Shown here: one piece after another, positions 1,542 through 48,809 of the stretch
Numbering within the stretch: the stretch's first letter is position 1
Layout of the letters: each line of letters begins with the position of its first letter
Assembly (NCBI GenBank): GCA_016187125.1
Contig: JACPKF010000007.1
Coordinates: forward strand, 835-64,834
Origin: Candidatus Saccharimonadota bacterium
GTDB lineage: Bacteria > Patescibacteriota > Saccharimonadia > Saccharimonadales > UBA10212
Reading direction: 5' to 3'
DNA: 64,000 bases
Made by a program: the position numbers and the translations under genes
Notes under the pieces: model-generated
The model's input: only the letters and a program-made list of their open reading frames with translations
The model's database searches: none
What the model was told of the DNA's origin: nothing

Positions 1542-1560
1542 ATAACAGATTAGAATATGT

Positions 1561-1661
1561 AAATAGATTCAGCGGGCCTACTTCGCCGTAGTAGCGCTTG
1601 GGCTACGATCCATTCTCCGTAGTACTACGAAGGATGAAAGGCTGAATCGCTGAATCTATTC
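1561..1661. repeat. MITE-like palindromic element with termini aaatagattcagcg / cgctgaatctatt
   Basis: Terminal inverted repeats enclose internal hairpins (cgtagtactacg). The same termini occur as a minimal hairpin at 41646-41683. The related core ttcagcgatcgctgaa occurs at 12792-12829 and 32187-32216. Confidence 0.7.
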
Positions 1662-1731
1662 CTAACCCTAAGTACTTGTCCGAACCAGCTTGCTACAAGG
1701 ATAATCCTTGTAGCACTCTTGTAGCACTAAC

Positions 1732-2011
1732 CTACTTTTCCAAAGTAGCAAACTATCCTACTTTTTGGTCCGTCAATCCGCCAGCTGGCGGAGCCGCAAA
1801 ACTCCCGGGATATTCGCAAAGCTAGATTGAGTCTAGTTGCAGACAAAAGCCGCACCAAAACAACTCCCTATGGTCGGTCTCGTTCTATTATCGGCGGAGG
1901 AACTCGACTCAGTTTTGGCTGGACTCGACTTTTGCCTGCCTAGCCTCATCTGTTTGCTCGAGTCCCGCAATTAAAAAAGGGTCCGCTCAGGGCTCAGCAG
2001 ATGCCCGGACC
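1732..2011 (+). repeat. copy A of a structured non-coding repeat family (A/B/C/D/E)
   Basis: Aligns block by block with 29683-29917 and 18340-18545: ctactttNNaaagtag, caaaactcccggg, gccgcNccNaaacaac, agtttNggNt, catctg...cagatgcccggacc. It ends 1 nt into the stop codon of the minus-strand ORF. Confidence 0.7.
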
Positions 2012-2355
2012 TACTTGTACTTACTGAGAAGTTCGTCTAGTTTTACTAGGATAGGGGAGCGCCAATCAAATTCAAGCTGTGTTCTTATAAACCGTACGAA
2101 CTCTTTATCTGTAGCCGATAAATTTTGTTTCTCTAACTGATGAATTTTACTAAGTATTTCGTAGTCTGTATCTGCGGCTAGGACATATTGATTAGCTTCT
2201 TCCGACGAAACTTCATTGCTTGCTTGAAGTTTTGACTTACGTTCTTTAAGAAGTTTTTGATATTCTCGATCATTTTCAAGTGCCTCGCGTAATTTATCAC
2301 CACTTAAGCCTTGATTAACGTAATAATTTTGCACTTGTTGGAGTGACTTAGACAT
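2011..2355 (-). CDS. hypothetical protein (114 aa), cassette-like ORF
   Basis: Intact ORF bracketed by direct repeats of gcccggacct (2003-2012 and 2511-2520). Confidence 0.5.
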   Translation of the reverse strand: MSKSLQQVQNYYVNQGLSGDKLREALENDREYQKLLKERKSKLQASNEVSSEEANQYVLAADTDYEILSKIHQLEKQNLSATDKEFVRFIRTQLEFDWRSPILVKLDELLSKYK

Positions 2356-2520
2356 GTCTCAATCATAGCAAATTCATCTGTCTGCTCCGGATCACAGCCT
2401 GAGCGGAGTAGCCCCGCCCATCTCGATAAGCGGGGTTATGGAGCTTCAAGTTTTAGTGCTCGGGTTTTTACTAATGCTTGCCGTGTAGTGAGCTTTGCTC
2501 TACTACTGCGGCCCGGACCT
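2356..2520 (+). repeat. copy D: 3' module only of the A/B/C/D/E repeat family
   Basis: Starts with tagcaaattcatctgtc and ends with gcggcccggacct. The central part is expanded relative to copy B. Confidence 0.6.
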
Positions 2521-2522
2521 GC

Positions 2523-8282: not shown

Positions 8283-8291
8283 CTTGTTGTA

Positions 8292-8333
8292 AGTACCCCA
8301 CTTTTGGTCCGATCGGACCAAAAGTGGGGTACT
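8292..8333. terminator. bidirectional hairpin terminator, perfect 42-nt palindrome centred on CCGATCGG
   Basis: agtaccccacttttggtccga|tcggaccaaaagtggggtact lies between convergent genes. A sister palindrome is at 25249-25288. Confidence 0.7.
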
Positions 8334-8346
8334 TTAGTATCTTAAT

Positions 8347-12088: not shown

Positions 12089-12173
12089 TCATAGCACAAA
12101 CCCCGCATATTTTCATGGCGTTTCGCAATCCGCCGCAGGCGGACTGCTCCACCCAGAAAATTGGCGGGGCAGG
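12089..12173 (+). repeat. 85-nt hairpin element (family F1) with core cgcaatccgccgNaggcggactgctccaccc
   Basis: Outer inverted repeat ccccgcatattttc / gaaaattggcgggg with an inner hairpin tccgcc/ggcgga. A second copy is at 14733-14808. It sits between the two rpoD 3'-end copies. Confidence 0.75.
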
Positions 12174-12206: not shown

Positions 12207-12776
12207 ATGAGAATTATTGGACTTGCCGGCACCAACGGTTCAGGGAAGGATAGTTTGGGCCAGATTTTGGCTGATGGTTATGGTTACATGTTTGTGTCGG
12301 TAGCTGATTTTTTAAGGGACGAGGCTAAAAAACGCGGCTTGCCGATTGAAAGGGAAGTTTTGCGGACAATCAGCGCCGAGTGGCGCCGTGAGTACGGACT
12401 GGGGGTTTTAGTTGATAGGGCAGTAGAATTATTCCAAAAATCCGGCAAGAACTATAAAGGTTTGGCAATCAGCCCGATGCGTAACGGCGGCGAGGCCGAC
12501 AGATTAAAAGAGCTAGGCGGCAGATTAGTTTGGATAGACGCTGATCCTAAAATTCGTTACGGGCGAATAACCAATCGTGCCCGTAGCACCGAAGATAAGA
12601 AAACTTATGAGCAATTTTTAGCCGAGGAACAAGCCGAAATGCAGCCCAGCGGCGACGAGGCCACCTTGAGCTTGAGCGATGTTAAAAAACGAGCCGACAT
12701 TTTTATTCAAAATGATGTTGAATCTTTGGAAGATTTCCGCCAAATCATCGACCAAAAATTAGCTCAACTTTTGTAA
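12207..12776 (+). CDS. P-loop nucleotide/nucleoside kinase-like protein (dephospho-CoA kinase / dNMP kinase-like)
   Basis: Walker A motif GLAGTNGSGKDS at the N-terminus in a small 189-aa protein. The exact substrate is not inferable. Confidence 0.55.
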   Translation: MRIIGLAGTNGSGKDSLGQILADGYGYMFVSVADFLRDEAKKRGLPIEREVLRTISAEWRREYGLGVLVDRAVELFQKSGKNYKGLAISPMRNGGEADRLKELGGRLVWIDADPKIRYGRITNRARSTEDKKTYEQFLAEEQAEMQPSGDEATLSLSDVKKRADIFIQNDVESLEDFRQIIDQKLAQLL

Positions 12777-12791
12777 TTAACAGATCAAATT

Positions 12792-12829
12792 ATAGGAATA
12801 AATTCAGCGATCGCTGAATTTATTCCTAT
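12792..12829. terminator. perfect 38-nt palindrome centred on GCGATCGC, likely terminator
   Basis: ataggaataaattcagcga|tcgctgaatttattcctat lies 16 nt after the kinase stop. Confidence 0.6.
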
Positions 12830-13979: not shown

Positions 13980-14077
13980 AGCATCTCCTTATGATGTACT
14001 TGGTATCTACAAACCCAGACAAACCTACCCCAGCGAGTAAGAGCAGTTTTTTACGACCTACATAAACCATTCTAATA

Positions 14078-14107
14078 TTCTTAAGAATAATAGAATAGGA
14101 ATAATTA
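14078..14107. repeat. copy of the ttctaatattcttaagaatattagaa palindrome family (imperfect)
   Basis: cattctaatattcttaagaataatagaata lies about 45 nt upstream of ORF 14153. Other copies are at 48498-48523, 48780-48807 and 51421-51452. Confidence 0.7.
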
Positions 14108-14692: not shown

Positions 14693-14732
14693 AATACCTA
14701 CCTACTATCTGTCTGGCGTATAATTTTAAGTA

Positions 14733-14808
14733 ACCCGCAGATCTTTTTGGGGAGTTGCGCAATCCGCCGAAGGCGGACTGCTCCACCCTGAAAAGGTATG
14801 GGGCAAGT
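14733..14808 (+). repeat. second copy of the F1 hairpin element
   Basis: The core gcgcaatccgccgaaggcggactgctccaccc (14757-14788) and flanking inverted repeats align with 12089-12173. Confidence 0.75.
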
Positions 14809-18291: not shown

Positions 18292-18339
18292 AAACTCAAA
18301 GTCGATATCTCCACCGGCAAAAACTGGGGCGAACTATAA
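18292..18339 (+). pseudogene. displaced duplicate of the polA 3' end (KLKVDISTGKNWGEL*)
   Basis: Parallels 17596-17643 (KLAVDISVGKNWGEL*) with 9 synonymous and 2 replacement codon differences. Confidence 0.85.
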
Positions 18340-18545
18340 ATATCTTCCATTTTGTTTCGGCAAAACGGAAGCCAAAAACCGACGGACATTCGAAAACACT
18401 ATCGAATTTACTAACGCTGTCTGCCGCGCCAAAACAACGCAAGCGGTCCCTCACTTTCTAGGGCAGAGGTTCGGGATTGAGTTTCGGCTGGACTCGCCAG
18501 CCAGCTACCAAATTCATCGGTTTTCTCGAGTCCGGAGACAGAAAG
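18340..18545 (+). repeat. copy C of the A/B/C/D/E structured repeat family
   Basis: ctgccgcgccaaaacaacgcaagcggtccctc ... gagtttcggctggactcgccagccagctaccaaattcatcggttttctcgagtccgg aligns with copies A and B. Confidence 0.65.
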
Positions 18546-18659
18546 ATTCTTTTGTTAGGACGGTTTAACACTAAATCCAGAGAAGATAATCTCTTCGATC
18601 TCTCAGGGTATAATTTGATTAAGGAGCCAGGTATAAATAACGACTTCATTTTGCCGGAA

Positions 18660-25248: not shown

Positions 25249-25288
25249 TTACCCCAAAAAGTGTCCGATCGGACACTTTTTGGGGTAA
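25249..25288. terminator. bidirectional hairpin terminator, perfect 40-nt palindrome centred on CCGATCGG
   Basis: ttaccccaaaaagtgtccga|tcggacactttttggggtaa lies between convergent genes. Confidence 0.7.
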
Positions 25289-26683: not shown

Positions 26684-27796
26684 ATGCCTGAGCTTCCTGA
26701 AGTTGAGATTATAAAACAAGGCTTATCTAAACTATTGCCCGGGCGGATTATTGCCGACGTTTGGCACAACTGGCAAAAATCTTTTCCGAACGCGCCAGCG
26801 GATGTGGCCCGATTTTTGGTGGATGCCAAGATCATATCAGTTAAACGTCGGGCCAAAGTCTTGATAATTGAACTTTCCAGCGGCTACTCGCTGGTTGTCC
26901 ATTTAAAAATGACAGGGCAACTAGTTTTTGTGCCAAAAACCAGCGAGCAAAAAGCCCGCCTTCGCCAAAGCTACGGTCGACAGGCAAAAAGCAAAAAGCA
27001 AAAAGCCGAAAAAAAGTTTGGTGGTGGGCATCCGACCAAAAGCTTAATAGGTAAGCTGCCGGACAAATCAACCCGAGTCATTGTTGAGTTTTACCCCCCG
27101 AAAGGCGCGCGGGACATACGCTTGAGTACGTTGCAAGGAAAAGTTGAGCAACGGACTAAGCCGTATATGAAATACGGTGAAGGAGTAGCGCAGACTTTGA
27201 CACAGCAAAGTGCCAAGAGTGTCGCCGGAGTGCCAGGGCGACAGCCCGAGCAGCAGGGCGACACGGCGCATGGTCCGCGACTTTTTTTTAATGATCAGCG
27301 TAAGTTTGGCTGGATGCGCCTGCTGCCGACGGTTGAGGTGCCCCAGATTGACTTTATGAAAAAAGTCGGCCCGGAGCCGCTGGAAGATAATTTTACGGTT
27401 GGTGTGTTTATTGAAAGACTCAACCGCCGAAAAAACAGCTCGATAAAAGCTATGCTGCTGGATCAAACCGTGCTGGCTGGAGTGGGGAATATCTATGCTG
27501 ACGAATCCTTATTTGCCGCTAAAATCCATCCAGCTACCCCGGTTTTTAAAGTTTCTAAAGCAAAATTAGTAATGCTCCATAATGCCCTGCGCCAAATACT
27601 GCAGCAGGCAATAGATAAAGGCGGCAGCACGGACCGAAATTACGTTGATGTCAAAGGTAAAAAGGGGAGTTATCTGAACTTTGCCCAGGTTTTTAGAAGA
27701 CAAGGCCAAGTGTGTTCCCGCTGCGGAGGCGTCATACAGAAGATACGCGTAGCTGGAAGAGGTACTCACATATGTCCAAGGTGTCAAAAACGTTAA
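26684..27796 (+). CDS. mutM: formamidopyrimidine-DNA glycosylase with a ~62-aa internal insert
   Basis: N-terminal MPELPEVE, H2TH (GVGNIYADESLF) and a C-terminal zinc finger (CSRCGG...CPRCQ). It is 370 aa against about 270-290 aa for typical Fpg. Confidence 0.88.
   Translation: MPELPEVEIIKQGLSKLLPGRIIADVWHNWQKSFPNAPADVARFLVDAKIISVKRRAKVLIIELSSGYSLVVHLKMTGQLVFVPKTSEQKARLRQSYGRQAKSKKQKAEKKFGGGHPTKSLIGKLPDKSTRVIVEFYPPKGARDIRLSTLQGKVEQRTKPYMKYGEGVAQTLTQQSAKSVAGVPGRQPEQQGDTAHGPRLFFNDQRKFGWMRLLPTVEVPQIDFMKKVGPEPLEDNFTVGVFIERLNRRKNSSIKAMLLDQTVLAGVGNIYADESLFAAKIHPATPVFKVSKAKLVMLHNALRQILQQAIDKGGSTDRNYVDVKGKKGSYLNFAQVFRRQGQVCSRCGGVIQKIRVAGRGTHICPRCQKR
27092..27277 (+). repeat. in-frame translated insertion element (family F3) inside fpg
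   Basis: The core gagtacgttgcaagg...ccgtatatgaaatacggtgaaggagtagcgcag aligns with 37493-37583 in the UDG gene. Contains hairpins ccgtatatgaaatacgg and gtcgccggagtgccagggcgac. Confidence 0.75.
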
Positions 27797-29268: not shown

Positions 29269-29643
29269 TTATTTTTTTGCAACAGGTTTCTTAGCAGGCT
29301 TTTTTGTGGCAGGCTTTTTGATCGGAGTTTTTTTAGCTGCTTTTGGCGTGATGACTTTAGGGGTAGCTTTGGAAGGTTTTACGCCGGCGGATTTGGCTTG
29401 GGAAGCTAATCTGGCTTTTTGGCGGGCGGCCTTATTTTTATGAATAACATTTTTCTTGGCTGCCGTATCAATAGCGCTCGTGGCCTGGTTTTGGGCTTTG
29501 ACAATACCGGCAGCTTTACCGCTCTCCATAGCTTTGGCAAAGCCTTTTAAGGCTTCACGCAAATTGCGCCTGGTCCTGGTATTGCGAGCATTAGCTTTGG
29601 CAGCTGTCTTGACGCGCTTTTTAGCAGACTTGATTATTGGCAT
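29269..29643 (-). CDS. rpsT: 30S ribosomal protein S20 with a Lys/Pro/Ala-rich C-terminal tail
   Basis: MPIIKSAKKRVKTAAKANARN is the S20 N-terminus. The protein is 124 aa and ends in PKAAKKTPIKKPATKKPAKKPVAKK. Confidence 0.9.
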   Translation of the reverse strand: MPIIKSAKKRVKTAAKANARNTRTRRNLREALKGFAKAMESGKAAGIVKAQNQATSAIDTAAKKNVIHKNKAARQKARLASQAKSAGVKPSKATPKVITPKAAKKTPIKKPATKKPAKKPVAKK

Positions 29644-29651
29644 AGGAGGTT

Positions 29652-29680
29652 ACTATACAGAGTGGAGCCCCTCTTGTCAA
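29652..29680 (-). promoter_or_regulatory. rpsT promoter TTGACA-17-TATAGT, 8 nt before the ATG (leaderless type)
   Basis: Minus strand reads ctcTTGACAagaggggctccactctgTATAGTaacctcctATG. No SD is present. Confidence 0.55.
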
Positions 29681-29682
29681 AG

Positions 29683-29917
29683 AGTCGGAAGACCTACTTT
29701 GTAAAGTAGGCAAACATTTCGCAACCTTTAACCGTAAAGGTTGCGCCAAACTCCCGGGCGCAGTAAAAACCAGATTGAATATGCCTCAACGGCGACTGCC
29801 GCGCCGAAACAACGACAAGCGGTCTCGTTCGTTAAACATCGGAGGAACGAGACAAAGTTTCGGTTTTACCCGCCAGCCACCTAGCAAATTCATCTGTTTT
29901 CACTGATGCCCGGACCC
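29683..29917 (+). repeat. copy B (most compact) of the A/B/C/D/E structured repeat family
   Basis: Hairpins cctactttgtaaagtagg, gcaacctttaaccgtaaaggttgc and gtctcgttc...gaacgagac. It ends with aattcatctgttttcactgatgcccggaccc. Confidence 0.7.
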
Positions 29918-29993
29918 AAGAAATTATCCTCTTGCGTACTCATACTCCTTATGGTACTGTTTGAGCATAAACTACAAAACTAAAAAATAAAAA

Positions 29994-30110
29994 ATGGATC
30001 CCGTTAGAACTCAAAAGACCAACAAAAATCACAAAGTGTTTGAAACCTCTACTGCTTTTCAATCGTTAATCAACACTAGAAAGTTAAGTGAGTTCTAACG
30101 GGATGGATCC
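29994..30110 (+). mobile_element. 101-nt MITE with 12-bp terminal inverted repeats and an 8-bp target-site duplication ATGGATCC
   Basis: Layout is ATGGATCC|cgttagaactca...tgagttctaacg(gg)|ATGGATCC. The right copy of the duplication is the start of the downstream gene. Confidence 0.7.
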
Positions 30111-31743
30111 AGCGGCAGCCAAGCAGCAAATAGTCGAGCGCATTAAACAAGCCTCTAATATTTTAGTGACGGTCAGTAATAATCCTTCGGTGGATCAACT
30201 GTCGGCTTGTATCGGCTTAACCTTGCTTTTAAACAAAATGGACAAGCATGCTACGGCTGTCTTTTCCGGGCAGGTTCCCTCGACTATCGAGTTTTTGCAA
30301 CCCGAGAAAACCATCGAAACCAACACCGACTCGCTGCAAGACTTCATAATTTCTCTCGATAAAAATAAAGCCGATAAACTGCGCTATAAAGTTGAAGATC
30401 AAGTAGTTCGCATATTTATAACACCGTATAAAACGTCTTTGAGTGAAAAAGATCTGGTGTTTAGCCTGGGTGACTTTAATGTCGAAGTGGTACTGGCTTT
30501 GGGTGTACAGGAACGCACTCAACTAGACGCCGCCATTACCACCCATGGCCGGATTTTGCATGATGCTACGGTTATCGCCCTGGAAGCCGGGAAGGGCAAT
30601 GCGCCCAACATTGGCCAAATTAATTGGCAAGATCCCACGGCCAGCAGCTTATCAGAGATGTTAGTTAGTATTAGCGAGGCTTTTGGTACGGGGCTGATTG
30701 ATAATCAGATGGCTACAGCCTTTTTAACCGGAATAGTAGCCGAGACCCATCGCTTCAGTAACGACAAAACCTCGCCTAGGGTTATGGCTATGGCTGCTCA
30801 ACTGATGGCCGCCGGCGCCAACCAACAGCTAATTGTTTCTAAACTAGAACCGCCACCGCCTCCAGCCGCACCGGTCGCCCAAAAATATACGCCGCCGCCC
30901 CCGCCGCCTGGGCCGTCCACCGGAGTCTTAAATGTTCCGCATAAGGCCGAGAAAGATGACAGCCAGGAAGTGGAAGTAAATTCCGGCGAGATTCACATAG
31001 ACGAAAAGGGCAACATTGTCAGCGATGAATTGCCAGCGGGGCCACCGCCTGGGCCCAAGATAACCCCAGCCCGAGCCTTACCAGAACCTGAGGATTTTAA
31101 GCCGCCAGCTCAGCCGATCTCTCAAAATACTCAAACGGCTATTCCTGGTCCTCATAGCTTACTCAATCCTCGTGAGCATCAACCGTCTATTAGCCCGCCA
31201 TTTACGGCTGACACCAAGCCGGAGTGGTACGATCCTTACAATACCGTGCCGCTTGACCCGTTAAGCGGTGTTTCCCGGCCGGACGACATCATTATTGACC
31301 AGGCAGGGAGCTTACAACCAGCCCAGGCAGAGCCAAGCGCTTCTTCTGGGCAGACTTCTGCGCCGACCGCGCCGACTGTTAACAGTAGTGAAACTGAGCC
31401 GCCATCTGATTTGCCTACCCAAGCCGGTACGGCACAGGCTCAATTACCGGCGGCTCCGCCTCCAATCAAAAACTCGGCGGGAACGCCTGGGATCGATAGC
31501 GCCAGGGGAGCAGTCCAAGGCGCAATAGATGCGGCACCATTTGACCCTAGCGGAAAGCCACTAACAGCTCTCGGGGCTCAACCCCTGAGCTCTGATTTAC
31601 ATGGTAAGATGGCGCCTCCAACCGATCAAAAGCCGGCTGATTCTTTGCCTCCACCGCCGCCTCTACCACCGCCTCTAACACCTTCACCTGGAGTGGTTAT
31701 TCCTGATCCGGCGCCTAGCGCAGGGCAGAATAAGCCAAAATAA
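30103..31743 (+). CDS. degenerate DHH-like N-terminal domain protein with a long proline-rich C-terminal region
   Basis: The N-terminal ~240 aa have an NrnA/DHH-like layout, but the DHH catalytic residues are not evident. The C-terminal part has PPPPP runs. The ORF track starts at GTG 30088. Confidence 0.45.
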   Translation: MDPAAAKQQIVERIKQASNILVTVSNNPSVDQLSACIGLTLLLNKMDKHATAVFSGQVPSTIEFLQPEKTIETNTDSLQDFIISLDKNKADKLRYKVEDQVVRIFITPYKTSLSEKDLVFSLGDFNVEVVLALGVQERTQLDAAITTHGRILHDATVIALEAGKGNAPNIGQINWQDPTASSLSEMLVSISEAFGTGLIDNQMATAFLTGIVAETHRFSNDKTSPRVMAMAAQLMAAGANQQLIVSKLEPPPPPAAPVAQKYTPPPPPPGPSTGVLNVPHKAEKDDSQEVEVNSGEIHIDEKGNIVSDELPAGPPPGPKITPARALPEPEDFKPPAQPISQNTQTAIPGPHSLLNPREHQPSISPPFTADTKPEWYDPYNTVPLDPLSGVSRPDDIIIDQAGSLQPAQAEPSASSGQTSAPTAPTVNSSETEPPSDLPTQAGTAQAQLPAAPPPIKNSAGTPGIDSARGAVQGAIDAAPFDPSGKPLTALGAQPLSSDLHGKMAPPTDQKPADSLPPPPPLPPPLTPSPGVVIPDPAPSAGQNKPK

Positions 31744-34250: not shown

Positions 34251-36404
34251 ATGGCTGAGACCATAAACCCCTTTGGTAAAAAAGTAATTAGAGTATCAAC
34301 CGATTTTTGCGGCCGCGAGCTGTCACTAGAGGTAAATCGCGTTGGTTTCCGGACTTCAGCGTCTGTGCTGGCCCGTTATGGCGATACGGTGGTGCTGGGC
34401 ACGGCTATGGTTAGCGACGGCCAAGTACAGGGACTGGATTATTTCCCCTTGAGTATCGATTACGAAGAAAAATTTTATGCGGCTGGCAAAATCAGCGGCA
34501 GCCGTTTTATAAAAAGAGAGGGCCGTCCCAGCGATGAAGCCATTTTAATCGGCCGGTTAATCGATCGCCCAATCCGTCCGCTGTGGCCCAAAGGTTATCG
34601 TAACGAAGTTCAAGGTGTTGCAACGGTCCTTAGCATGGACCCGGGCTTCCGCCCCGACATGGTAGCCATGGTAGCCATGAGCGCCGCCTTTATGTTAACC
34701 GGAGCGCCGTTTGAAGGTCCGGTGGCCGGATTACGCATTGGTCTGGTTGATGGTCAACTTACGGCTTTTGCCAGTCCCGAGCAGCTGGATAAAGGCCCAC
34801 TGGACTTAGTAGTTGCTGGCACGAAGGACGGTATTATGATGGTTGAAGCCGGCGCCAATGAAGTTTCCGAGTCCCAAGTCGTTGAAGCTTTGGAATTTGC
34901 CCACAAGATGGTCCAGCCAGCCATTAAATTGCAGAAAGAACTGGTTGAAAAAGTCGGCGTGGTAGCCCGTGAATATGAACTGCTGAAGCCGGATAAGGAA
35001 ATTGTTGATCGGGTTGAGACTTGGCTAGCTGGAAAAATGGGCGCCAACCTTCGTGCCCCCCATCCGGAGCGCGGTGACATAGTTAAAAAGTTGCGCGATG
35101 CTATGTTTGAACATTTTGAAATGAATCCGCCAGCTGGCGGAGGTGATGATTTTGCCGCCCAAAAAGCCGACTTTGACGAAGCTTTTACTATGGCCCTGCA
35201 TCAAGATTTGCGCCAAGCGGTGCTGCATGAAAATATTCGTCCCGATGGCCGCAAGACTACCGAAATTCGGCCACTTTCCAGTGAAGTCGGCTTTTTGCCT
35301 CGAGCCCACGGCTCCAGCTTGTTTACCCGCGGCGTGACTCAGGCTATGAACATCGTTACCTTGGCGCCGCTTTCCTACGCCCAGATGGTAGACACTATGG
35401 AACGCCAGGGCGAACGACGCTATTTGCATCACTACAACGCGCCGGGCTATACGATAGGTGAAGTCCGACGACTGGGCAGCCCCGGCCGGCGTGAAATTGG
35501 CCATGGTTATTTGGCCGAGCGGGCCCTATTGCCGATGCTGCCAGACGAAGCCGATTTCCCATACACTATCCGCTCAGTAACCGAAATTATGAGTCAAAAC
35601 GGCTCAACTTCGATGGCTGCCACATGCTCCAGTACTTTGGCGCTGATGGACGCCGGGGTGCCGCTAAAAGCCCCAGTTAGCGGTATTGCCATGGGACTAA
35701 TGACCAATGGCACAAAGTCGGTAATTTTAAGTGATATTGCTGATGCCGAGGATTTTGCCGGCGATATGGATTTTAAAGTTGCCGGTACCACCAAAGGCAT
35801 CACAGCTCTGCAAATGGACATGAAAGTTCATGGCTTACCGGTAGAAACCTTGGCCAAGACATTGGAACAGGGCAAAGCCGGCCGGGCTGAGATTTTGCAG
35901 CACATGCTTAGCACTCTGCCTGAAGTCCGGCAACAAATGAGCCCCTACGCACCACGAGTTGAAACCATCATAATCAATCCCGAAAAAATCCGTGAAGTTA
36001 TCGGTAAAGGTGGTGAAACGATCAATAAAATCATTGCCGAAACCGGCGCCGAAATTGATATTAAAGATGACGGTATGGTGATGATTGCCAGTCCGGACAA
36101 AAAATCTATCGATGCCGCCCGCCAGTGGATAGAGAGCATCACGGCCGAACCGGAGGTCGGGCGTATTTACGAAAACGTACCAGTAGTTAACGTCATGGAT
36201 TTTGGCGCTTTTGTGCAGATTATGCCCGGTAAAGACGGACTGGTGCATGTCAGCGAAATGAGCGAGCAGCGGGTAGAAAAACCCAGCGACGTCGTTAAAG
36301 AAGGTGATAAAGTGACCGTTAAATTAGTCTCAATTGACGACCGTGGCCGCTTGCAGCTAAGCATGCGAGCGGCACAGCGAGAAATGAAAGAGAAGAAAGA
36401 CTAA
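34251..36404 (+). CDS. pnp: polyribonucleotide nucleotidyltransferase (PNPase)
   Basis: 717 aa with two RNase PH domains, KH (GKGGETINKI) and S1 (GAFVQIMPGKDGLVHVSE). Confidence 0.95.
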   Translation: MAETINPFGKKVIRVSTDFCGRELSLEVNRVGFRTSASVLARYGDTVVLGTAMVSDGQVQGLDYFPLSIDYEEKFYAAGKISGSRFIKREGRPSDEAILIGRLIDRPIRPLWPKGYRNEVQGVATVLSMDPGFRPDMVAMVAMSAAFMLTGAPFEGPVAGLRIGLVDGQLTAFASPEQLDKGPLDLVVAGTKDGIMMVEAGANEVSESQVVEALEFAHKMVQPAIKLQKELVEKVGVVAREYELLKPDKEIVDRVETWLAGKMGANLRAPHPERGDIVKKLRDAMFEHFEMNPPAGGGDDFAAQKADFDEAFTMALHQDLRQAVLHENIRPDGRKTTEIRPLSSEVGFLPRAHGSSLFTRGVTQAMNIVTLAPLSYAQMVDTMERQGERRYLHHYNAPGYTIGEVRRLGSPGRREIGHGYLAERALLPMLPDEADFPYTIRSVTEIMSQNGSTSMAATCSSTLALMDAGVPLKAPVSGIAMGLMTNGTKSVILSDIADAEDFAGDMDFKVAGTTKGITALQMDMKVHGLPVETLAKTLEQGKAGRAEILQHMLSTLPEVRQQMSPYAPRVETIIINPEKIREVIGKGGETINKIIAETGAEIDIKDDGMVMIASPDKKSIDAARQWIESITAEPEVGRIYENVPVVNVMDFGAFVQIMPGKDGLVHVSEMSEQRVEKPSDVVKEGDKVTVKLVSIDDRGRLQLSMRAAQREMKEKKD

Positions 36405-36992: not shown

Positions 36993-37859
36993 ATGACCAA
37001 ACAAGAAGAACTTGCAAAAATTAAGGCTGATATTGTGAAGCAAAAAATTTGCCCAGACCTGGCCGCCGGTGCCACGCAACTGGTTTTTGGCGATGGTGAT
37101 CCGGACGCCGAGCTAGTCTTTATTGGTGAAGCGCCCGGTAAAAACGAAGATGAGCAAGGTCTGCCATTTGTCGGCGCGGCCGGTAAGTTTTTAAATGAGA
37201 TGCTAGCACTTATAGGGCTAAAACGTGAGGACGTATACATTACCAACATTGTTAAATATCGCCCGCCGGAAAATCGTGACCCATTGCCTGATGAAAAAAC
37301 GGTCTTTTTGCCGTTTTTGCATGCTCAGCTGGCAGTGATTAAGCCCAAAATTGTGGTAACGCTAGGCCGTCACAGCATGGAGTGCTTTTTGCCGGATCTG
37401 AAAATTAGTGTCTGTCACGGCCAAGCCAAAAGGATCAGAGTGGAGAATGGAGAGGGCAGAGTGAAGAAAGTCGTGGCAGGTGGCCAAGTGGCGAGTACGA
37501 TGCAAGGCGCAGGCGAGCAGCGGACTGAAACGTATGGAAAATACGGTGAAGGAGCAGCGCAGCCTGCAACACAGCAGCGTGCCGCAAGTGACAACAGTGT
37601 CGGTGGCTCTGCCGACGACCAGGTTGTTACGTCCTTGGTCATCCTGCCGTTGTTTCATCCGGCGGCGGCCTTATATAACGGCGGAATGCGCCAAACATTA
37701 ATAGACGATTTTATGAAGATACCGCGTATTTTAGCTAAACTTGAGCAGACGCCTAACTCTTTTGATAAACAAAAAACGCGGGAGGTGCAAGTTTCTGTCG
37801 TGTCTCAGCCAGAAGTTAAAAAAGCTGGCCCGAGCCAACTTCAATTAGGTATTAAGTGA
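36993..37859 (+). CDS. family-4 uracil-DNA glycosylase with a ~65-aa internal insert
   Basis: GEAPGKNEDEQGLPFVGAAGKFL and HPAAALYN are family-4 UDG motifs. It is 288 aa against about 190-210 aa typical. Confidence 0.85.
   Translation: MTKQEELAKIKADIVKQKICPDLAAGATQLVFGDGDPDAELVFIGEAPGKNEDEQGLPFVGAAGKFLNEMLALIGLKREDVYITNIVKYRPPENRDPLPDEKTVFLPFLHAQLAVIKPKIVVTLGRHSMECFLPDLKISVCHGQAKRIRVENGEGRVKKVVAGGQVASTMQGAGEQRTETYGKYGEGAAQPATQQRAASDNSVGGSADDQVVTSLVILPLFHPAAALYNGGMRQTLIDDFMKIPRILAKLEQTPNSFDKQKTREVQVSVVSQPEVKKAGPSQLQLGIK
37436..37638 (+). repeat. in-frame translated insertion element (family F3) inside the UDG gene
   Basis: gagtacgatgcaaggcgcaggcgagcagcggactgaaacgtatggaaaatacggtgaaggagcagcgcag is homologous to the fpg insert. 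The peptide is QGAGEQRTETYGKYGEGAAQ. Confidence 0.75.
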
Positions 37860-38098: not shown

Positions 38099-40186
38099 AT
38101 GGATGACAAAGCAAAAAATCTAGACAGTCAACCATCCAATCAGCCAAATAGTAGAACCGCGCCCGGTCGTAACTTGGTTACTTCAACCGGCCGAAATGTC
38201 TCTAGAGGGGCGGCCATCCGGGCCCAAAAACAAGCGGTTAACGATGCTAATCGGGTAGCTAGTCAATATCTTGATGCAGCCAATAAACATCCGCTGGCTA
38301 GCGGAGACCGGCCAAGACGTGCCAACGTTATTGATGATAATCCGCGGCTAAAAATTATTGGCTTGGGTGGCATGGATGGTGGCGGTTCTAAAAATATGCT
38401 GGTGATCGAATACCAAAATGATGCAATTGTGATTGATTGCGGCAATGATCTAGGCGTTGATCTGCCAGGCATTAACTACGGTATCGCTGATACGACTTAC
38501 CTCGATCAAATAAAAAATAAGCTAAGAGGTTTTGTCATAACCCATGGGCATCTGGACCACATGGGCGGCCTACCTCACATTTTACCCAAATATAACGTGC
38601 CGGTTTATGGCGGCCGTTTTACCATCGGACGGGTGGAGGAAATCTTTCAAAACTTTGGCCTGCCAATGCCCAAGGGCTTTGAGCTTAAAACTGTCATCAT
38701 GAACGAAACAACCCACGAACGTCTTAAAATTGGCGTGTTTTTCGTGGAATTGGTGCGAGTAACCCATGCCATCCCAGGCAGCACCATGGTAGTGGTTGAT
38801 ACACCGGTGGGTAGAATTATAAATACCGGTGACTTTCGCCTAGATCCCAATCCTTTGGATCACGAAAGAACGGATACGGCACGCATTGAGGAACTGTCTC
38901 GTGAAAATGTGCTGCTACTGATGAGCGAAAGTACTACCACCGAAACCCTTGGCCGTACGCTATCGGAAAGCCAAATCGAGAAAAGCTTTATAGACATTAT
39001 GGACCAGGCGCCCGGACGGATTTTCGTGGCTATTTTCTCGACCAATGTCAATCGCATCCAGATGATAGTTAACGCTGCTGTGCACCACGGGCGTAAAGTG
39101 GCGATTGATGGACGCAGCATGATTAGCACGCTGGAAATGGCCGTAAAAAACGGCTTTATGAAGATTCCCAAGGGTACATTTGTACCGATAGCTTCAGTGT
39201 CTAATCTCAAAGATGATCAAGTTGTGGTAGTCAGTACTGGAGCCCAAGGCGAACCGAACTCGGCGCTTCAACGCATGAGTACGGGGGATCATAAATACGT
39301 TGCATTAAAAGAACAAGACACCGTCATTCTGTCTAGCCGGGCTATTCCGTACACCGGCAATGACGCCTTAATACGCTCTATGGTTGATGAGCTCTTTAAA
39401 AAAGGAGTACACGTTTTTCGTCACGAAACCTACGAGCTGGACGGCGGTGGGCCACTGCACGTTTCCGGGCACGGCGGTCAAGAAGAATATCGGGATATGA
39501 TTAAAATGGTCAAACCAAAATTCTTTTTGCCCATTTACGGCGACTATACCGCCAAAAAATACCATATAGATATTGCTTTGGAGGAGGGAATTCCGCGGGT
39601 CAATACACTGAACGTTGACAACGGCCAAGTCATAACGCTTGCTAAAGACAAAATGCAGCTTGGTGGCGAGGTGCCGCATGGCACCATCTTGGTAGATCAA
39701 ACCGGGGCTGTGGTTAGCACGGTGGTGGTTAAAGACCGGGTCCTACTGGCCGAAGAGGGCGTAGTGGCGGTGGTGCTGACTATCGACAAAAAAACCGGCC
39801 AGCTTCTAACTAGCCCAGATATAATCAGCCGCGGCTTTATCTACATGAAAGAGAATGAAGAGCTAATGAATGCTTTTCGCGCCGAACTGCGCCGAGCGGT
39901 TAGCCAGCGCTTTAAGCGGGTTGATCTGGACCGCTTTAAGGCCGAGCTAAAAGACTACGTCACCCACTTTTTGTACGAGCAAACCCAACGCAGCCCAATT
40001 GTCATCCCAGTAGTTAACGTTATTGGCGGCCGGGCAGAAAAAGCCAATAATAATCTGCACGGTGCCGGCCAAGTTGCGCCCAGCGGTGAAACTCCCAAGA
40101 CGCCTGAAGAGATTGCTTTAGAACAGCAGCGCCGATTTGCACAGATGAGGCAACGACTGCTCAACCAAGACGCCCGTGTGGACTAA
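38099..40186 (+). CDS. rnj: ribonuclease J
   Basis: Metallo-beta-lactamase HGHLDHMGG, beta-CASP layout and the conserved HVSGHGGQEE. There is a ~90-aa polar N-terminal extension. Confidence 0.9.
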   Translation: MDDKAKNLDSQPSNQPNSRTAPGRNLVTSTGRNVSRGAAIRAQKQAVNDANRVASQYLDAANKHPLASGDRPRRANVIDDNPRLKIIGLGGMDGGGSKNMLVIEYQNDAIVIDCGNDLGVDLPGINYGIADTTYLDQIKNKLRGFVITHGHLDHMGGLPHILPKYNVPVYGGRFTIGRVEEIFQNFGLPMPKGFELKTVIMNETTHERLKIGVFFVELVRVTHAIPGSTMVVVDTPVGRIINTGDFRLDPNPLDHERTDTARIEELSRENVLLLMSESTTTETLGRTLSESQIEKSFIDIMDQAPGRIFVAIFSTNVNRIQMIVNAAVHHGRKVAIDGRSMISTLEMAVKNGFMKIPKGTFVPIASVSNLKDDQVVVVSTGAQGEPNSALQRMSTGDHKYVALKEQDTVILSSRAIPYTGNDALIRSMVDELFKKGVHVFRHETYELDGGGPLHVSGHGGQEEYRDMIKMVKPKFFLPIYGDYTAKKYHIDIALEEGIPRVNTLNVDNGQVITLAKDKMQLGGEVPHGTILVDQTGAVVSTVVVKDRVLLAEEGVVAVVLTIDKKTGQLLTSPDIISRGFIYMKENEELMNAFRAELRRAVSQRFKRVDLDRFKAELKDYVTHFLYEQTQRSPIVIPVVNVIGGRAEKANNNLHGAGQVAPSGETPKTPEEIALEQQRRFAQMRQRLLNQDARVD

Positions 40187-40354
40187 TATTTCCGGACGCT
40201 GCCTCGACTCGATATAGCTGTTGATTAAAAACAGGCTCGCTCGGGAACTCCTCGGAATTCATCCACTGGATAAATTCTTCGTCAAACAGCCCTCGCACCC
40301 AAGGACGCCTCTTTTCAACAACATCTACTCGGGCCTCGCCAGATGCCCGGAAAT
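40187..40354 (+). repeat. copy E (diverged) of the A/B/C/D/E repeat family, starting immediately after the rnj stop
   Basis: Begins atttccggacgctg and ends cgccagatgcccggaaat (inverted ends). It contains the aattcatcc module. Confidence 0.55.
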
Positions 40355-40475
40355 ATTAGTCCATCCTCCAAAAAATCGAAGCCAAGGACAGACTGTTTTA
40401 CGCTCGCCCGGCTTCAGGTTCGCTGCGCAGGCCTAGAATTCAAACCGTTGGCCACTCTATTGAAGGTTTAGAAAA

Positions 40476-41020: not shown

Positions 41021-41050
41021 CTTCTCAACCAAGACGCCCGGGTTGATTAG
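41021..41050 (+). pseudogene. second copy of the rnj 3' end (LLNQDARVD*)
   Basis: ctt ctc aac caa gac gcc cgg gtt gat tag versus the real ctg ctc aac caa gac gcc cgt gtg gac taa. All differences are silent. Confidence 0.85.
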
Positions 41051-41503: not shown

Positions 41504-41538
41504 AATAATAATTATAACACGTTTCGGCTGTGTTCGGG

Positions 41539-41595
41539 CGCCGCTTCGCCCAGATGCGCCAACGTCTGCTTAACCAAGACGCTCGCGTCGACTAG
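41539..41595 (+). pseudogene. third copy of the rnj 3' end (RRFAQMRQRLLNQDARVD*)
   Basis: Of 19 codons parallel to 40130-40186, 10 differ and all are silent (the stop changes TAA to TAG). Confidence 0.88.
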
Positions 41596-41645
41596 TCTCA
41601 ATCCGAGGTCCGAGACTTACTTCATAATAGATAACAGATCAAGAT

Positions 41646-41683
41646 ATGAGAATAGATTCAGCGTTCGCTGAATCTATTCTCAT
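41646..41683. terminator. palindromic hairpin atgagaatagattcagcg-tt-cgctgaatctattctcat
   Basis: An 18-bp stem 50 nt after the last rnj-end copy. It has the same termini as the element at 1561-1661. Confidence 0.6.
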
Positions 41684-42732: not shown

Positions 42733-42811
42733 GAGGTTCGACCTTAAGAAAAGAGAGGTAAAACCTTATAGTTTTATATTTTCAATCTTGCTTTTCCCAA
42801 GGACGGACCTC
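42733..42811. repeat. second copy of the F7 hairpin element
   Basis: gaggttcgaccttaagaaaag ... cttttcccaaggacggacctc. An extra half-site gaggtctgtccttgtaaaaag is at 42668-42688. Confidence 0.65.
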
Positions 42812-46523: not shown

Positions 46524-47042
46524 ATGGCACGAAGTTTTAATCAAGTAGTTTTGATGGGAAATCTCACCCGAGATCCGGATTTGCGGACTACGCCCAGCGG
46601 ACAAAGCGTCTGTAACTTTAGTTTAGCGCTGAACCGAAGCTATAAGGGCCAGGATGGTGAATGGAAAGAAATGACCGACTTTATTGACATTGTGGCTTGG
46701 GGTCCTTTGGGTGAGCGAGTCGCCCAATATTTAACTAAGGGCCGACCGGCGCTGGTTAGCGGCCGGCTGCAAAGCCGCAGCTGGGAGCAAGACGGCCAAA
46801 AGCGTAACAAAGTGGAAGTGGTAGCTCAGGATGTAACATTCTTGGGCAGTCCCAGCGGATCGGCGGCTAGTAGCCTAGCAACGGATGAGCCGACAGCCGC
46901 GGCAAGCGATGATAAAAAAGCCGTTCCGAAAAAGAAAAAAGATGATAAAAATCCGCCAGCTGTCGGAACTAAAGACGAGGAAGATGTTGTGATTGAGGAC
47001 ATCGGCGACGAACCGATTAATTTGGATGATATACCATTCTAA
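46524..47042 (+). CDS. ssb: single-stranded DNA-binding protein
   Basis: OB-fold N-terminus NQVVLMGNLTRDPDLRTTPSGQSV and an acidic tail ending in DDIPF. Confidence 0.92.
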   Translation: MARSFNQVVLMGNLTRDPDLRTTPSGQSVCNFSLALNRSYKGQDGEWKEMTDFIDIVAWGPLGERVAQYLTKGRPALVSGRLQSRSWEQDGQKRNKVEVVAQDVTFLGSPSGSAASSLATDEPTAAASDDKKAVPKKKKDDKNPPAVGTKDEEDVVIEDIGDEPINLDDIPF

Positions 47043-48491: not shown

Positions 48492-48497
48492 CCAATT

Positions 48498-48523
48498 TTC
48501 TAATATTCTTAAGAATATTAGAA
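48498..48523. repeat. perfect 26-nt palindrome ttctaatattctt|aagaatattagaa just upstream of the HTH gene
   Basis: It ends 7 nt before the ATG at 48531 and belongs to the 4-copy palindrome family. Confidence 0.8.
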
Positions 48524-48530
48524 TGTAACT

Positions 48531-48809
48531 ATGAAAACTATCTATTCTTCTCAAGATCTAGCAGATATTTTAAAAGGGGGAGCCAATCATCACAGAATTA
48601 ATATCCTTTTTTTGCTTGATAAGCGAGGCAAGCTAACACTCGACGAAGTTGCTGAGGCATTAAGGGCAAATTATAAAACTATTGCTGTCCACCTTAGCCG
48701 CCTACATAAAAGTGGGCTGGTTACCAAGCGCTATAAAGCTTCAGCTGTCGAGCATGATTTAACACCACGTGCTCGCCATATTCTAAATTTCTTAAGAATA
48801 TTAGAATGA
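48531..48809 (+). CDS. small winged-helix (ArsR-like) DNA-binding protein
   Basis: A 92-aa protein with HHRINILFLLDKRGKLTLDEVAEALRANYKTIAVHLSRLHKSGLV, an HTH pattern. The gene is bracketed by two copies of the palindrome. Confidence 0.6.
   Translation: MKTIYSSQDLADILKGGANHHRINILFLLDKRGKLTLDEVAEALRANYKTIAVHLSRLHKSGLVTKRYKASAVEHDLTPRARHILNFLRILE
48780..48807. repeat. imperfect copy of the palindrome spanning the HTH gene stop and the tlyA start
   Basis: attctaaatttcttaagaatattagaat encodes ILNFLRILE* and contains the tlyA ATG (48806). Confidence 0.75.

What the first reader, a model, noticed from the sequence alone, without database searches (positions are those of the whole stretch)
29683..29917. 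Compact master copy of a 5-member structured repeat family directly upstream of the rpsT promoter
Copy B aligns block by block with copies A (1732-2011) and C (18340-18545), and partly with D and E. At one position, different sequences preserve a hairpin: gcaaccttta/taaaggttgc in B versus tccgcca/tggcgga in A. That pattern argues for selection on structure rather than on sequence. Copies sit after the polA relic, after the rnj stop, after orphan ORFs and next to rpsT. I could not match it to RNase P, tmRNA, SRP or 6S hallmarks.
Basis: seen in the sequence. Interest (0 to 1): 0.6.

Follow-up and report, generated by a model that had tools for sequence, protein, structure and literature searches.

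The report
Structured dispersed repeat family in Saccharibacteria
The sequence next to the rpsT promoter is one copy of a previously uncatalogued, about 230-base hairpin-forming repeat that is scattered through some Saccharibacteria genomes; it looks more like a small mobile or selfish structured repeat than a regulator of rpsT, although an RNA function is not excluded.

Summary
The repeat is real. The window holds three full copies, all on the + strand: A 1728-2012, B 29686-29917 and C 18336-18550. It also holds two fragments made of accessory 3' pieces, not five full members.

Models built from these copies find about 20 further distinct copies in Saccharibacteria/Patescibacteria MAGs and metagenomes. 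No Rfam family matches.

The fold is two small 5' hairpins followed by a roughly 160-nt rod. Covariation support is strong: 88% of cells pair, against 34-49% in slid controls, and 28 of 41 pairs show double changes.

Several results argue against a classical single-strand RNA gene:
- Pairs are kept as Watson-Crick on both strands (G-U 28, A-C 25).
- No promoter, open reading frame or partner protein is conserved.
- Insertion sites differ between close relatives.
- Seven syntenic relatives lack the element, including at the rpsT site.
- Copies are modular, truncated or decayed.

B sits between two divergent promoters, so it is best read as an insertion unrelated to rpsT control.

Best reading: a new MITE/ERIC/REPIN-like foldback repeat (confidence about 0.5). 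A trans-acting sRNA family remains possible (about 0.25). The transcribed strand, expression and means of spread are unresolved.

The parts
29686..29917 (+). Copy B, the given finding: a full type-I element with P1, P2, rod and 3' terminal motif
   Evidence: R1 230 bits. R2 core 29766-29902, 123 bits. Fold z = -6.3 on + and -5.8 on -.
29692..29709 (+). P1 hairpin of B (CCTACTT TGTA AAGTAGG, 7 bp)
   Evidence: The same hairpin appears with different stems (CTTC/GAAG, GTTC/GAAC, TTAC/GTAA) in homologs.
29720..29743 (+). P2 hairpin of B (10 bp, loop ACCG)
   Evidence: a 9-11 bp hairpin in 15 copies, with at least 7 different stem sequences.
29753..29913 (+). Rod of B. Closing helix CCGGGC/GCCCGG, then CAGT/ACTG, AAAAC/GTTTT and AGAT.GAATAT/AAATTC.ATCT, then the conserved core and the apical hairpin.
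29795..29875 (+). Conserved core of B. CTGCCGCGCCGAAACAAC (29795-12) pairs with GTTTCGG...CG.CAG (29856-75), with a 6-nt 3' bulge. The apical hairpin is 29821-29852, with GGAGG at 29840-44.
   Evidence: Invariant or nearly invariant columns. Part of this invariance was imposed by the search pattern.
29905..29915 (+). 3' terminal motif GATGCCCGGAC, a sharp right end of the family
   Evidence: Exact only at 29905 and 2000 in the window. Similarity between copies stops just after it.
1728..2012 (+). Copy A (type II). The 3' half of P2 is replaced by the hairpin at 1777-1792. An extra 3' module (1960-2012) ends in GATGCCCGGAC.
   Evidence: R1 214 bits. R2 core 1818-1958, 108 bits. 89% identical to L038..
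18336..18550 (+). Copy C (type II, lacks P1)
   Evidence: R1 220 bits. R2 core 18393-18526, 115 bits. 83% identical to L029/L030.
2366..2522 (+). Fragment D: 3' arm of the rod (2366-2381 matches B 16/16) plus an accessory 3' module (2480-2519, 90% identical to the module that follows the L038 copy)
40250..40445 (+). Fragment E, after the RNase J stop codon: accessory-module pieces only (CAGATGCCCGGAA at 40340; similarity to sequence flanking the L008 and L040 copies)
   Evidence: No core is present. A close relative (L018) has two copies of the element after rnj.
29652..29680 (-). Context, not part of the element: rpsT promoter TTGACA-17-TATAGT. The rpsT gene is 29269-29643 on the - strand.
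   Evidence: The same promoter is present in relatives without the element.
29932..29960 (+). Context: promoter of the DHH-like gene (TTGCGT-17-TACTGT), conserved in L042 and L043
   Evidence: Read from the sequence.

Best explanation
Copy B is one insertion of a modular, dispersed foldback repeat that occurs in some Saccharibacteria. The family is non-autonomous and probably mobile, or was until recently. Its modules, in order, are hairpin P1, hairpin P2, a rod of about 160 nt with a conserved asymmetric internal-loop core and an apical loop carrying GGAGG, and a sharp right end GCCCGGACC(C). Accessory 3' hairpin modules are sometimes present.

Shown here:
- The family exists and occurs in several copies per genome.
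- Its fold is maintained by compensatory change.
- Its sites differ between relatives.
- B is absent from seven syntenic relatives.
- Copies are often truncated, mosaic or decayed.
- No partner protein gene, ORF or promoter is conserved.

Inferred:
- The element acts and is selected as a folded single strand, because bulges and asymmetric loops cannot exist in duplex DNA.
- It is spread by an enzyme supplied in trans. The asymmetric ends with subterminal hairpins, the absence of target-site duplications and the orientation bias fit a single-strand (HUH/IS200-IS605/REP-RAYT-like) route better than DDE cut-and-paste.
- Once inserted it is mostly co-transcribed with the upstream gene. There its hairpins and its roughly 25-bp near-perfect basal duplex would act as a 3'-end, processing or termination structure, as ERIC, REP and Correia elements do.
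- B lies between two divergent promoters. It is probably a passenger with no role in rpsT expression.
For: Family and fold:
-.
- On a structure-blind MAFFT alignment, 88.0% of cells pair against 34-49% when partners are slid. 28 of 41 pairs show changes on both sides, and 0 of 500 shuffles reach any measure.

Symmetric complementarity:
- Core pairs are 729 Watson-Crick, 28 G-U and 25 A-C.
- Both strands fold equally well relative to shuffles (z = -4.9 and -4.7).

Not a gene in the usual sense:
- No Rfam match.
- No conserved ORF, neighbouring protein or sigma-70-type promoter on either side.

Turnover:
- A, B and C are 61-68% identical to one another but 83-89% identical to copies in genomes whose proteins are only 58-86% identical, and they sit at different sites there.
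- The closest relative sampled, L018 (79-86% aa identity), has two copies after rnj where the window has only fragments. No L018 DNA covering sites B and C is held, so those sites could not be checked.
- About 117 kb from seven relatives' loci holds no copy, and much of it is syntenic with window 14953-45075.

B as an insertion:
- The rpsT-to-DHH spacer is 459 nt in the window and 132-304 nt in six relatives.
- Subtracting B (232 nt) and a 109-nt MITE footprint leaves 118 nt.

Decay and mosaicism:
- L018b and L026 lack a 3' arm, L007 lacks P1 and half of P2, and L028 has four diverged copies in 5 kb.
- Copy A carries a foreign hairpin.
- Fragments D and E are accessory pieces only.

Orientation and density:
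- The nearest upstream gene is co-oriented in 16 of 19 copies (p = 0.004).
- Density in carrier genomes is about one copy per 20-30 kb.

Active small mobile DNA in this genome:
- A 103-bp MITE with a target-site duplication lies 80 nt away.
Against: - No target-site duplication, parent IS or transposase was found. The window has no transposase hit.
- The true ends (P1 side versus GCCCGGACC) are not inverted repeats of each other.
- No conserved target sequence abuts the left end.
- Complementarity and covariation run through the whole rod, including the apical hairpin. The best-conserved positions are loops and bulges (AACGACAAGC, the 6-nt bulge, GAGG). This pattern is typical of functional RNAs or protein-binding sites.
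- Cross-genome identity of 83-89% exceeds what neutral decay would leave, so either constraint or horizontal spread is needed.
- The orientation bias falls to 10 of 13 (p = 0.09) when one copy per contig is counted.
- No empty and filled site pair is close enough in sequence to define exact ends.
- Homologs were found with a pattern inside the core, so core invariance is partly ascertainment.
Confidence: 0.5

Rival explanations
1. A family of paralogous trans-acting structured RNAs. Each copy would be its own small-RNA gene, or be processed from a 3' UTR. The invariant asymmetric core would bind a protein. The apical loop would present GGAGG (+ strand, Shine-Dalgarno mimic) or CCUCC (- strand, anti-Shine-Dalgarno mimic able to pair with mRNA ribosome-binding sites), with variable neighbouring loop bases giving specificity.
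For: - Strong covariation.
- Conserved unpaired motifs; GAGG is invariant while its nominal partners vary.
- Subfamilies are conserved at 83-89% across genomes with much more divergent proteins.
- On the - strand every hairpin is followed by a U-rich tract: the rod by U3-5, and P2 is flagged as terminator-like.
- On the - strand the H8 internal loop becomes a tandem G-A/A-G mismatch (read).
- The - strand has the lower free energy in 16 of 20 copies.
- G-U outnumbers A-C 78 to 37 on the + strand in the model-fitted alignment.
Against: - The strand cues conflict. In the structure-blind core alignment G-U equals A-C (28 versus 25).
- Of the 78 G-U cells, 30 come from the invariant GAGG, which is probably unpaired.
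- No promoter is conserved on either side.
- B is flanked by two outward-firing promoters.
- Sites are not syntenic, and seven relatives' loci, much of them syntenic with the window, lack the family.
- There are many truncated or decayed copies.
- Density of about one per 20-30 kb is unusual for sRNA paralogs.
Confidence: 0.25
2. A host-encoded cis-acting intergenic RNA structure that is not mobile, serving as a terminator, insulator, or mRNA 3'-end stabilising or processing element. It would have spread by duplication and recombination and be kept because both convergent transcripts need a hairpin.
For: - Of the 19 copies with a scorable upstream gene, 16 follow a co-oriented gene. The downstream gene is convergent in 15 of 25.
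- Symmetric Watson-Crick conservation fits a structure needed on both strands.
- Terminator-like features are present on the - strand.
- One copy lies inside an operon directly upstream of trmD, in L026.
- Known repeats behave this way (PMC3184786).
Against: - B lies between divergent promoters, where no transcript needs ending.
- Relatives manage without it at the same sites.
- A 230-nt conserved architecture with invariant loops is far more than a terminator needs.
- The upstream genes in L030 and L007 already have canonical terminators before the element.
Confidence: 0.12
3. A regulatory leader or upstream element of rpsT, or of the DHH-like gene.
For: Only its position: the left end is 12 nt from the rpsT -35 box and the right end 15 nt from the DHH -35 box.
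Against: - Both promoters point away from it.
- The other copies are not near rpsT.
- Seven syntenic relatives keep rpsT and its promoter, and the DHH promoter, without the element.
- There is no ribosomal-protein-leader hit in Rfam.
Confidence: 0.02

Closest known systems
ERIC/IRU elements of Enterobacteriaceae (about 127-bp imperfect palindromes; PMC3184786; Wilson and Sharp 2006 from my own knowledge)
   Same: Dispersed intergenic imperfect palindromes that fold into a long hairpin. They often lie at gene 3' ends and are co-transcribed. Size variants arise by internal insertion. Abundance is patchy among relatives. Pairing is maintained along the whole element.
   Different: No sequence similarity and a different phylum. 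This element is twice as long and has two extra 5' hairpins and an asymmetric conserved core. ERIC-type units have TIRs, target duplications and flanking TA; none of these is seen here.
REP / REPIN elements with RAYT transposases (PMC2817692 and PMC3733652 abstracts)
   Same: Hairpin-forming extragenic repeats arranged in mosaics of modules. There are no TIRs or TSDs, they are orientation-biased, and they are thought to move as folded single strands. P1 and P2 often carry CTAC...GTAG feet.
   Different: REPs are 20-40 nt and REPINs about 100 nt. No RAYT gene was seen in the held sequence. GTAG lies inside the stem here, not as a 5' tag, and is not universal (GTTG, GTGG and GTAT also occur).
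IS200/IS605-derived non-autonomous elements (PATEs) and their right-end omega RNAs (own knowledge)
   Same: Asymmetric ends with subterminal hairpins, no TIR or TSD, a sharply defined right end, strand and orientation bias, and a structured region of about 150-230 nt at the right end.
   Different: No TnpA or TnpB in the window or beside any copy. No conserved target motif at the left flank. No match to the Rfam IS605-orfB motifs.
Correia (NEMIS) and other bacterial MITEs such as Chunjie, 178-235 bp (Table 1 of PMC3184786)
   Same: Size class, copy density, intergenic location, presence/absence between relatives, and RNA hairpins in co-transcripts.
   Different: Classical MITEs have short TIRs at the true ends plus TSDs. 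The 103-bp MITE at 30000-30102 in this same window shows both, and the element studied here shows neither.
Rod-shaped regulatory RNAs such as 6S RNA
   Same: A length of about 200 nt and a long interrupted helix.
   Different: No large central bubble, no Rfam 6S match, multi-copy, non-syntenic, and absent from relatives.

Membership tests
Any Rfam 15 family | Covariance-model score at or above the family's gathering threshold | tested here: not met
   The whole window has 0 hits at gathering. Permissive scans of A, B, C and six homolog loci give only chance-level hits.
Classical (DDE-type) MITE | Multiple dispersed intergenic copies with presence/absence differences between relatives | tested here: met
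   Three full copies in 64 kb. Sites differ from L018 and L014. Seven relatives' loci, largely syntenic, are empty.
Classical (DDE-type) MITE | Terminal inverted repeats at the true ends | tested here: not met
   The left end is P1 (or P2) and the right end is GCCCGGACC(C). The inverted repeat is internal, formed by the rod arms.
Classical (DDE-type) MITE | Target-site duplication | tested here: not met
   No consistent direct repeat flanks the copies. AAGA at B is the only candidate and could be chance.
Classical (DDE-type) MITE | Parent IS with the same ends in the genome | not testable with these tools
   None in the window. The rest of the genome is not held.
REP/REPIN-RAYT | Short palindromes tagged by GTAG or CGTC, with a RAYT (Y1 transposase) gene in the genome | tested here: inconclusive
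   CTAC/GTAG feet occur in many but not all P1 and P2 hairpins. No Y1 transposase appears among the window's top Pfam families. The genome-wide question is open.
IS200/IS605-type non-autonomous element / omega RNA | Asymmetric ends with subterminal hairpins and no TIR or TSD | tested here: met
   (by observation only).
IS200/IS605-type non-autonomous element / omega RNA | Conserved tetra- or pentanucleotide target abutting the left end; TnpA or TnpB present | tested here: not met
   Left flanks differ. No TnpA or TnpB in the window or next to copies. The genome-wide question is not testable.
6S RNA | Rod with a large central bubble; one or two conserved loci; Rfam RF00013 | tested here: not met
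Ribosomal-protein (rpsT) leader or operator | Lies in the rpsT transcript and is conserved with rpsT in relatives | tested here: not met
   It lies upstream of the -35 box and is absent in L041-L047.
Structured ncRNA (generic) | Covariation with strand-specific G-U tolerance, plus own promoter and terminator | tested here: inconclusive
   Covariation is present. G-U is about equal to A-C. No promoter is conserved. Expression is not testable here.

The most novel reading that the evidence does not exclude
These are not junk repeats but a Saccharibacteria-specific class of about 230-nt structured RNAs made in dozens of paralogous copies. An invariant asymmetric core would dock an unknown protein. 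An apical loop would present an SD or anti-SD motif next to variable bases. This would give a reduced-genome epibiont an RNA-based layer of translational control. Alternatively, the conserved scaffold is an orphan guide-RNA-like module served in trans by an unlinked nuclease or recombinase.
Probability: 0.2. Interest if true: 0.75.

Novelty: new member of a known kind. Interest (0 to 1): 0.42.

Why it matters
Saccharibacteria and other CPR bacteria have roughly 1-Mb genomes that are assumed to be streamlined, and for cultured TM7x no small RNAs have yet been validated (10.1101/2022.03.25.485537).

A 230-nt repeat that occupies about 1% of a genome region, turns over between relatives and keeps its fold by compensatory change shows two things. 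Selfish or semi-domesticated structured elements persist even in these genomes, and they reshape promoter-proximal and intercistronic DNA.

The two covariance models give a ready tool to census it. If it proves to be expressed from one strand, it would be the first large RNA family specific to this phylum.

For annotation, it also explains several 'orphan ORFs' and long intergenic gaps in these MAGs.

Tried and rejected
- Rfam at gathering and permissive thresholds on the window, on A, B and C, and on six homolog loci: nothing.
- tRNA and tmRNA scan: none.
- Coding potential: no frame stays open across copies.
- Conserved neighbouring protein: none. Neighbours are housekeeping genes such as topoisomerase I, sigma factors, TrmD and CDP-alcohol transferase.
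- Transposase or TnpB in the window: none found.
- Viral contigs: no match.
- Conserved promoter upstream on either strand: none.
- Target-site duplications or a target motif: none consistent.
- Strand assignment by G-U/A-C counts, free energy, z-scores and loop composition: contradictory or null.
- Pseudoknot between the P2 loop and the 3' tail: only 3-5 nt of ad hoc complementarity; dropped.
- 6S RNA, rpsT leader, integron attC, retron, TIGR or CRISPR-like array, and IS110 bridge RNA: rejected on architecture, on lack of the partner gene, or on the Rfam results.
- A larger model built from all 30 hits could not be calibrated. A 137-position core model was used instead.
- RNAalifold on the plain MAFFT alignment of full-length copies recovered only the core, because the outer helices were misaligned.
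- Whether the contig labelled Limnocylindria (L004) really is Chloroflexota could not be settled (GC 52%, no shared genes).

Full report
**Source and setting**

The window comes from an NCBI MAG named 'Candidatus Saccharibacteria bacterium' (locus tags HYW35_, contig 67,139 bp). Its DHH-like protein is 100% identical to window 30103-31743.

rpsT is 29269-29643 on the - strand (Pfam S20p). Its promoter is TTGACA-17-TATAGT at 29680-29652. The finding (29683-29917) therefore does lie directly upstream of the rpsT -35 box.

Yes, for three copies. A (1728-2012), B (29686-29917) and C (18336-18550), all on the + strand, align with 69% mean column identity.

- A covariance model (R1) built from them scores them 214-230 bits. 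Nothing else in the window exceeds 12 bits with filters off.
- A later core model (R2), built from 22 diverse copies, again finds only these three (108-123 bits; next best 14.8).
- B folds much better than dinucleotide shuffles on both strands: -85.7 kcal/mol (z = -6.3) on + and -98.3 kcal/mol (z = -5.8) on -.

- D has 16/16 identity to B's 3' arm. It also has a 40-nt module that is 90% identical to the sequence following the L038 copy.
- E shares only accessory-module pieces with sequence flanking the L008 and L040 copies.
- Both are fragments, not members with a core.

In A, the hairpin tccgccagctggcgga is a separate repeat module also present at 35124 and 46950. It replaced the 3' half of P2, while the 5' half of P2 remains and matches the intact P2 of L038.

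**Homologs elsewhere**

I ran one exact-pattern scan each of the genome and metagenome collections, using GCCGCNCCNAAACAAC-N35-60-AGTTTNGG. I then confirmed hits with R1. This gave 30 matches, 26 of them distinct.

- Three are on contigs of Patescibacteria MAG H41-bin145_1.
- One is in Ca. Saccharibacteria UBA6824.
- One weaker core-only copy is in a MAG labelled Limnocylindria. That label is unverified (GC 52%).
- Viral contigs gave none.

Caveat: the pattern lies in the core, so the invariance of helices 6 and 7 is partly imposed by the search. However, four extra copies found only by the model, in L018 and L028, keep the same motifs.

**Anatomy**

The following is read.

- P1 is a 6-8 bp hairpin. 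It is absent in C, L022 and L007.
- P2 is a 9-11 bp hairpin with perfect Watson-Crick stems and at least seven different stem sequences.
- An A-rich linker, CAAAAC, follows.
- The rod comes next. It has a G+C-rich closing helix, then about 25 bp of nearly continuous duplex.
- Two subtypes of that duplex differ by a fully compensated 4-bp block, CAGT/ACTG versus TCGA/TCGA.
- An internal loop follows.
- The conserved core is CUGCCGCGCCGAAAC paired with GUUUCGG-[6-nt bulge]-CG.CAG.
- An asymmetric loop comes next, either AACGACAAGC or AACUCCCUNNGGUC opposite AA.
- An apical hairpin carries an invariant GAGG in its loop.
- The right end is sharp, at GCCCGGACC(C).
- In several type-II copies (A, L038, L030, L040, L023) this terminal motif sits 25-70 nt beyond the rod, in an extra small hairpin module.

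**Covariation**

On the model-fitted alignment:
- 87.7% of cells pair, against 34-50% with partners slid.
- 41 of 55 pairs show changes on both sides.
- 0 of 500 shuffles reach any measure.

On a structure-blind MAFFT alignment of the core, with a structure I wrote by hand:
- 88.0% of cells pair, against 34-49% with partners slid.
- 28 of 41 pairs show changes on both sides.
- 0 of 500 shuffles reach any measure.

Selection for complementarity is therefore solid.

**Which strand, and RNA or DNA?**

This is unresolved, and that is informative.

- In the fitted alignment G-U outnumbers A-C 78 to 37 on the + strand. However, 30 of those G-U cells involve the invariant GAGG, whose partners often mismatch.
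- In the structure-blind core alignment the counts are 729 Watson-Crick, 28 G-U and 25 A-C. There is no asymmetry.
- The - strand has the lower free energy in 16 of 20 copies, but it is also richer in G+U. Z-scores are equal at -4.9 and -4.7.
- Unpaired positions are not A-rich.
- Cues for the - strand: a U3-5 tract after the rod, U-rich tails after P2, a tandem G-A in the apical stem, and a CCUCC loop.
- Cues for the + strand: the nearest upstream gene is co-oriented in 16 of 19 copies (p = 0.004), though only 10 of 13 (p = 0.09) with one copy per contig.
- One copy sits inside an operon just upstream of trmD.
- No sigma-70-type promoter is conserved on either side.
- No frame is open across copies.

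**Distribution**

A, B and C are 61-68% identical to one another. Yet B is 87% identical to L007, C 83% to L029/L030, and A 89% to L038. The proteins of those genomes are only about 58-86% identical to the window's, and the copies sit at different sites.

- The closest relative sampled (L018, 79-86% aa identity) carries two copies downstream of RNase J. There the window has only fragment E.
- I fetched the syntenic holA-rpsT-DHH-truB-rpsO-pnp-...-rnj-ftsK region from seven relatives.
- None of about 117 kb holds a copy.
- Their rpsT-to-DHH spacers are 132, 195, 195, 205, 281 and 304 nt. One is 996 nt and filled with other ORFs.
- The window's spacer is 459 nt. Removing B (232 nt) and a MITE footprint (109 nt) leaves 118 nt.
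- The rpsT promoter (TTTACA-17-TATAGT) and the DHH promoter (TTGCAA-17-TACTGT or TAGTGT) are conserved in relatives.
- In the window, B lies exactly between these two outward-firing promoters (29680 and 29932).

B therefore behaves as an insertion and is not part of rpsT control.

**Other signs of a repeat rather than a gene**

- Copies are truncated or decaying. L018b and L026 lack a proper 3' arm, L007 lacks P1 and half of P2, and L028 holds four diverged copies in 5.3 kb on both strands.
- Copies are mosaic with other hairpin repeats. Copy A is one example. In L018 an 80-nt palindrome precedes both copies and recurs at window 42749-42811.
- One copy abuts a decayed rve-type transposase remnant.
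- No partner protein family recurs.
- The window has no transposase or TnpB.

**Interpretation**

The best-supported reading is a new family of modular, dispersed foldback repeats. It is functionally comparable to ERIC, REP/REPIN, Correia or PATE elements. These are intergenic, often lie at gene 3' ends, are co-transcribed and can affect mRNA fate (PMC3184786).

- The element must act as a folded single strand, because its conserved bulges cannot exist in duplex DNA.
- Equal tolerance on both strands, asymmetric ends with subterminal hairpins, no TSD and the orientation bias fit an ssDNA-type mobilisation better than DDE cut-and-paste.
- That step is inference. No enzyme, target or transposition event was seen.

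Against a purely selfish element stand the conserved loops, the whole-length covariation and the 83-89% cross-genome identity. These keep a true sRNA family alive as a rival (about 0.25). In that reading, the - strand would have a CCUCC loop and terminal hairpins, or the + strand a GGAGG loop.

**Novelty**

I found nothing like it in Rfam or in the searched literature. For cultured TM7x no small RNAs have been validated. I file it as a new member of a known kind, bacterial small dispersed structured repeats. Membership in any named family is not established.

Noticed in passing
window 29994-30108: A 103-bp MITE (30000-30102) has perfect 13-bp terminal inverted repeats CCCGTTAGAACTC/GAGTTCTAACGGG and a 6-bp target duplication ATGGAT. 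It is inserted exactly at the start codon of the DHH-like gene. Relatives read AAAAATAAAAA-ATGGATCCAGCGGCAGC uninterrupted. The upstream ATG now opens a short ORF of roughly 30 codons ending in the right repeat, 8 nt before the real ATG at 30103. Logan contigs of the same strain break at this repeat.
   Followed up: partly
window 27124-27214 and 37493-37583: Two unrelated DNA glycosylase genes each carry the same in-frame insert. They are fpg (370 aa versus 290-324 aa in relatives) and udg (288 aa versus 187-211 aa). The inserts are 78% identical in nucleotides. The peptides are STLQGKVEQRTKPYMKYGEGVAQTLTQQSAKS and STMQGAGEQRTETYGKYGEGAAQPATQQRAAS. This may be an in-frame intragenic repeat, like the Rickettsia palindromic elements.
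   Followed up: partly
window 14067-14100, 48495-48528, 48778-48811, 51421-51454: A 28-34-nt perfect palindrome family, TTCTAATATTCTTAAGAATATTAGAA, lies in intergenic positions. It could be an operator or another repeat.
   Followed up: no
window 1535-1582, 12770-12825, 41624-41679: A repeated hairpin module, GAATAGATTCAGCG-TTCG-CGCTGAATCTATTC, with a conserved 5' leader follows gene ends. It is terminator-like but has no U tract.
   Followed up: no
window 1775-1792, 35124-35142, 46950-46967; also 12098-12171 and 14732-14805: The hairpin AATCCGCC(N4)GGCGGA recurs. One copy lies inside element copy A. A related hairpin lies within a 74-nt repeat found twice, 77% identical.
   Followed up: partly
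window 8291-8334 and 25249-25288; window 42749-42811; L018 5905-5998, 6634-6727, 8891-8969, 10181-10260: Further long palindromic intergenic repeats occur. An 80-nt palindrome precedes both element copies in L018 and has one copy in the window. These genomes carry several hairpin-repeat families.
   Followed up: partly
window 40129-40185, 41021-41049, 41538-41594: The last 57 nt of the RNase J coding sequence are repeated downstream at 82-86% identity. This suggests partial gene duplications in the variable region after rnj.
   Followed up: no
window 1691-1732 (+): A sub-threshold Rfam hit to the ssNA-helicase motif (24 bits versus a gathering score of 41.5, E = 0.03) lies just upstream of copy A, in a doubled CTTGTAGCAC segment.
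   Followed up: no
L033 2419-2763: A decayed C-terminal fragment of an rve-type (IS3/IS481-like) transposase, ...MRYYNSERLHMSLNYQTPNE, ends right at the left edge of an element copy. A 17-nt tandem duplication, CTCGAGCCTGCTTATT(C), lies at the copy's right edge.
   Followed up: partly
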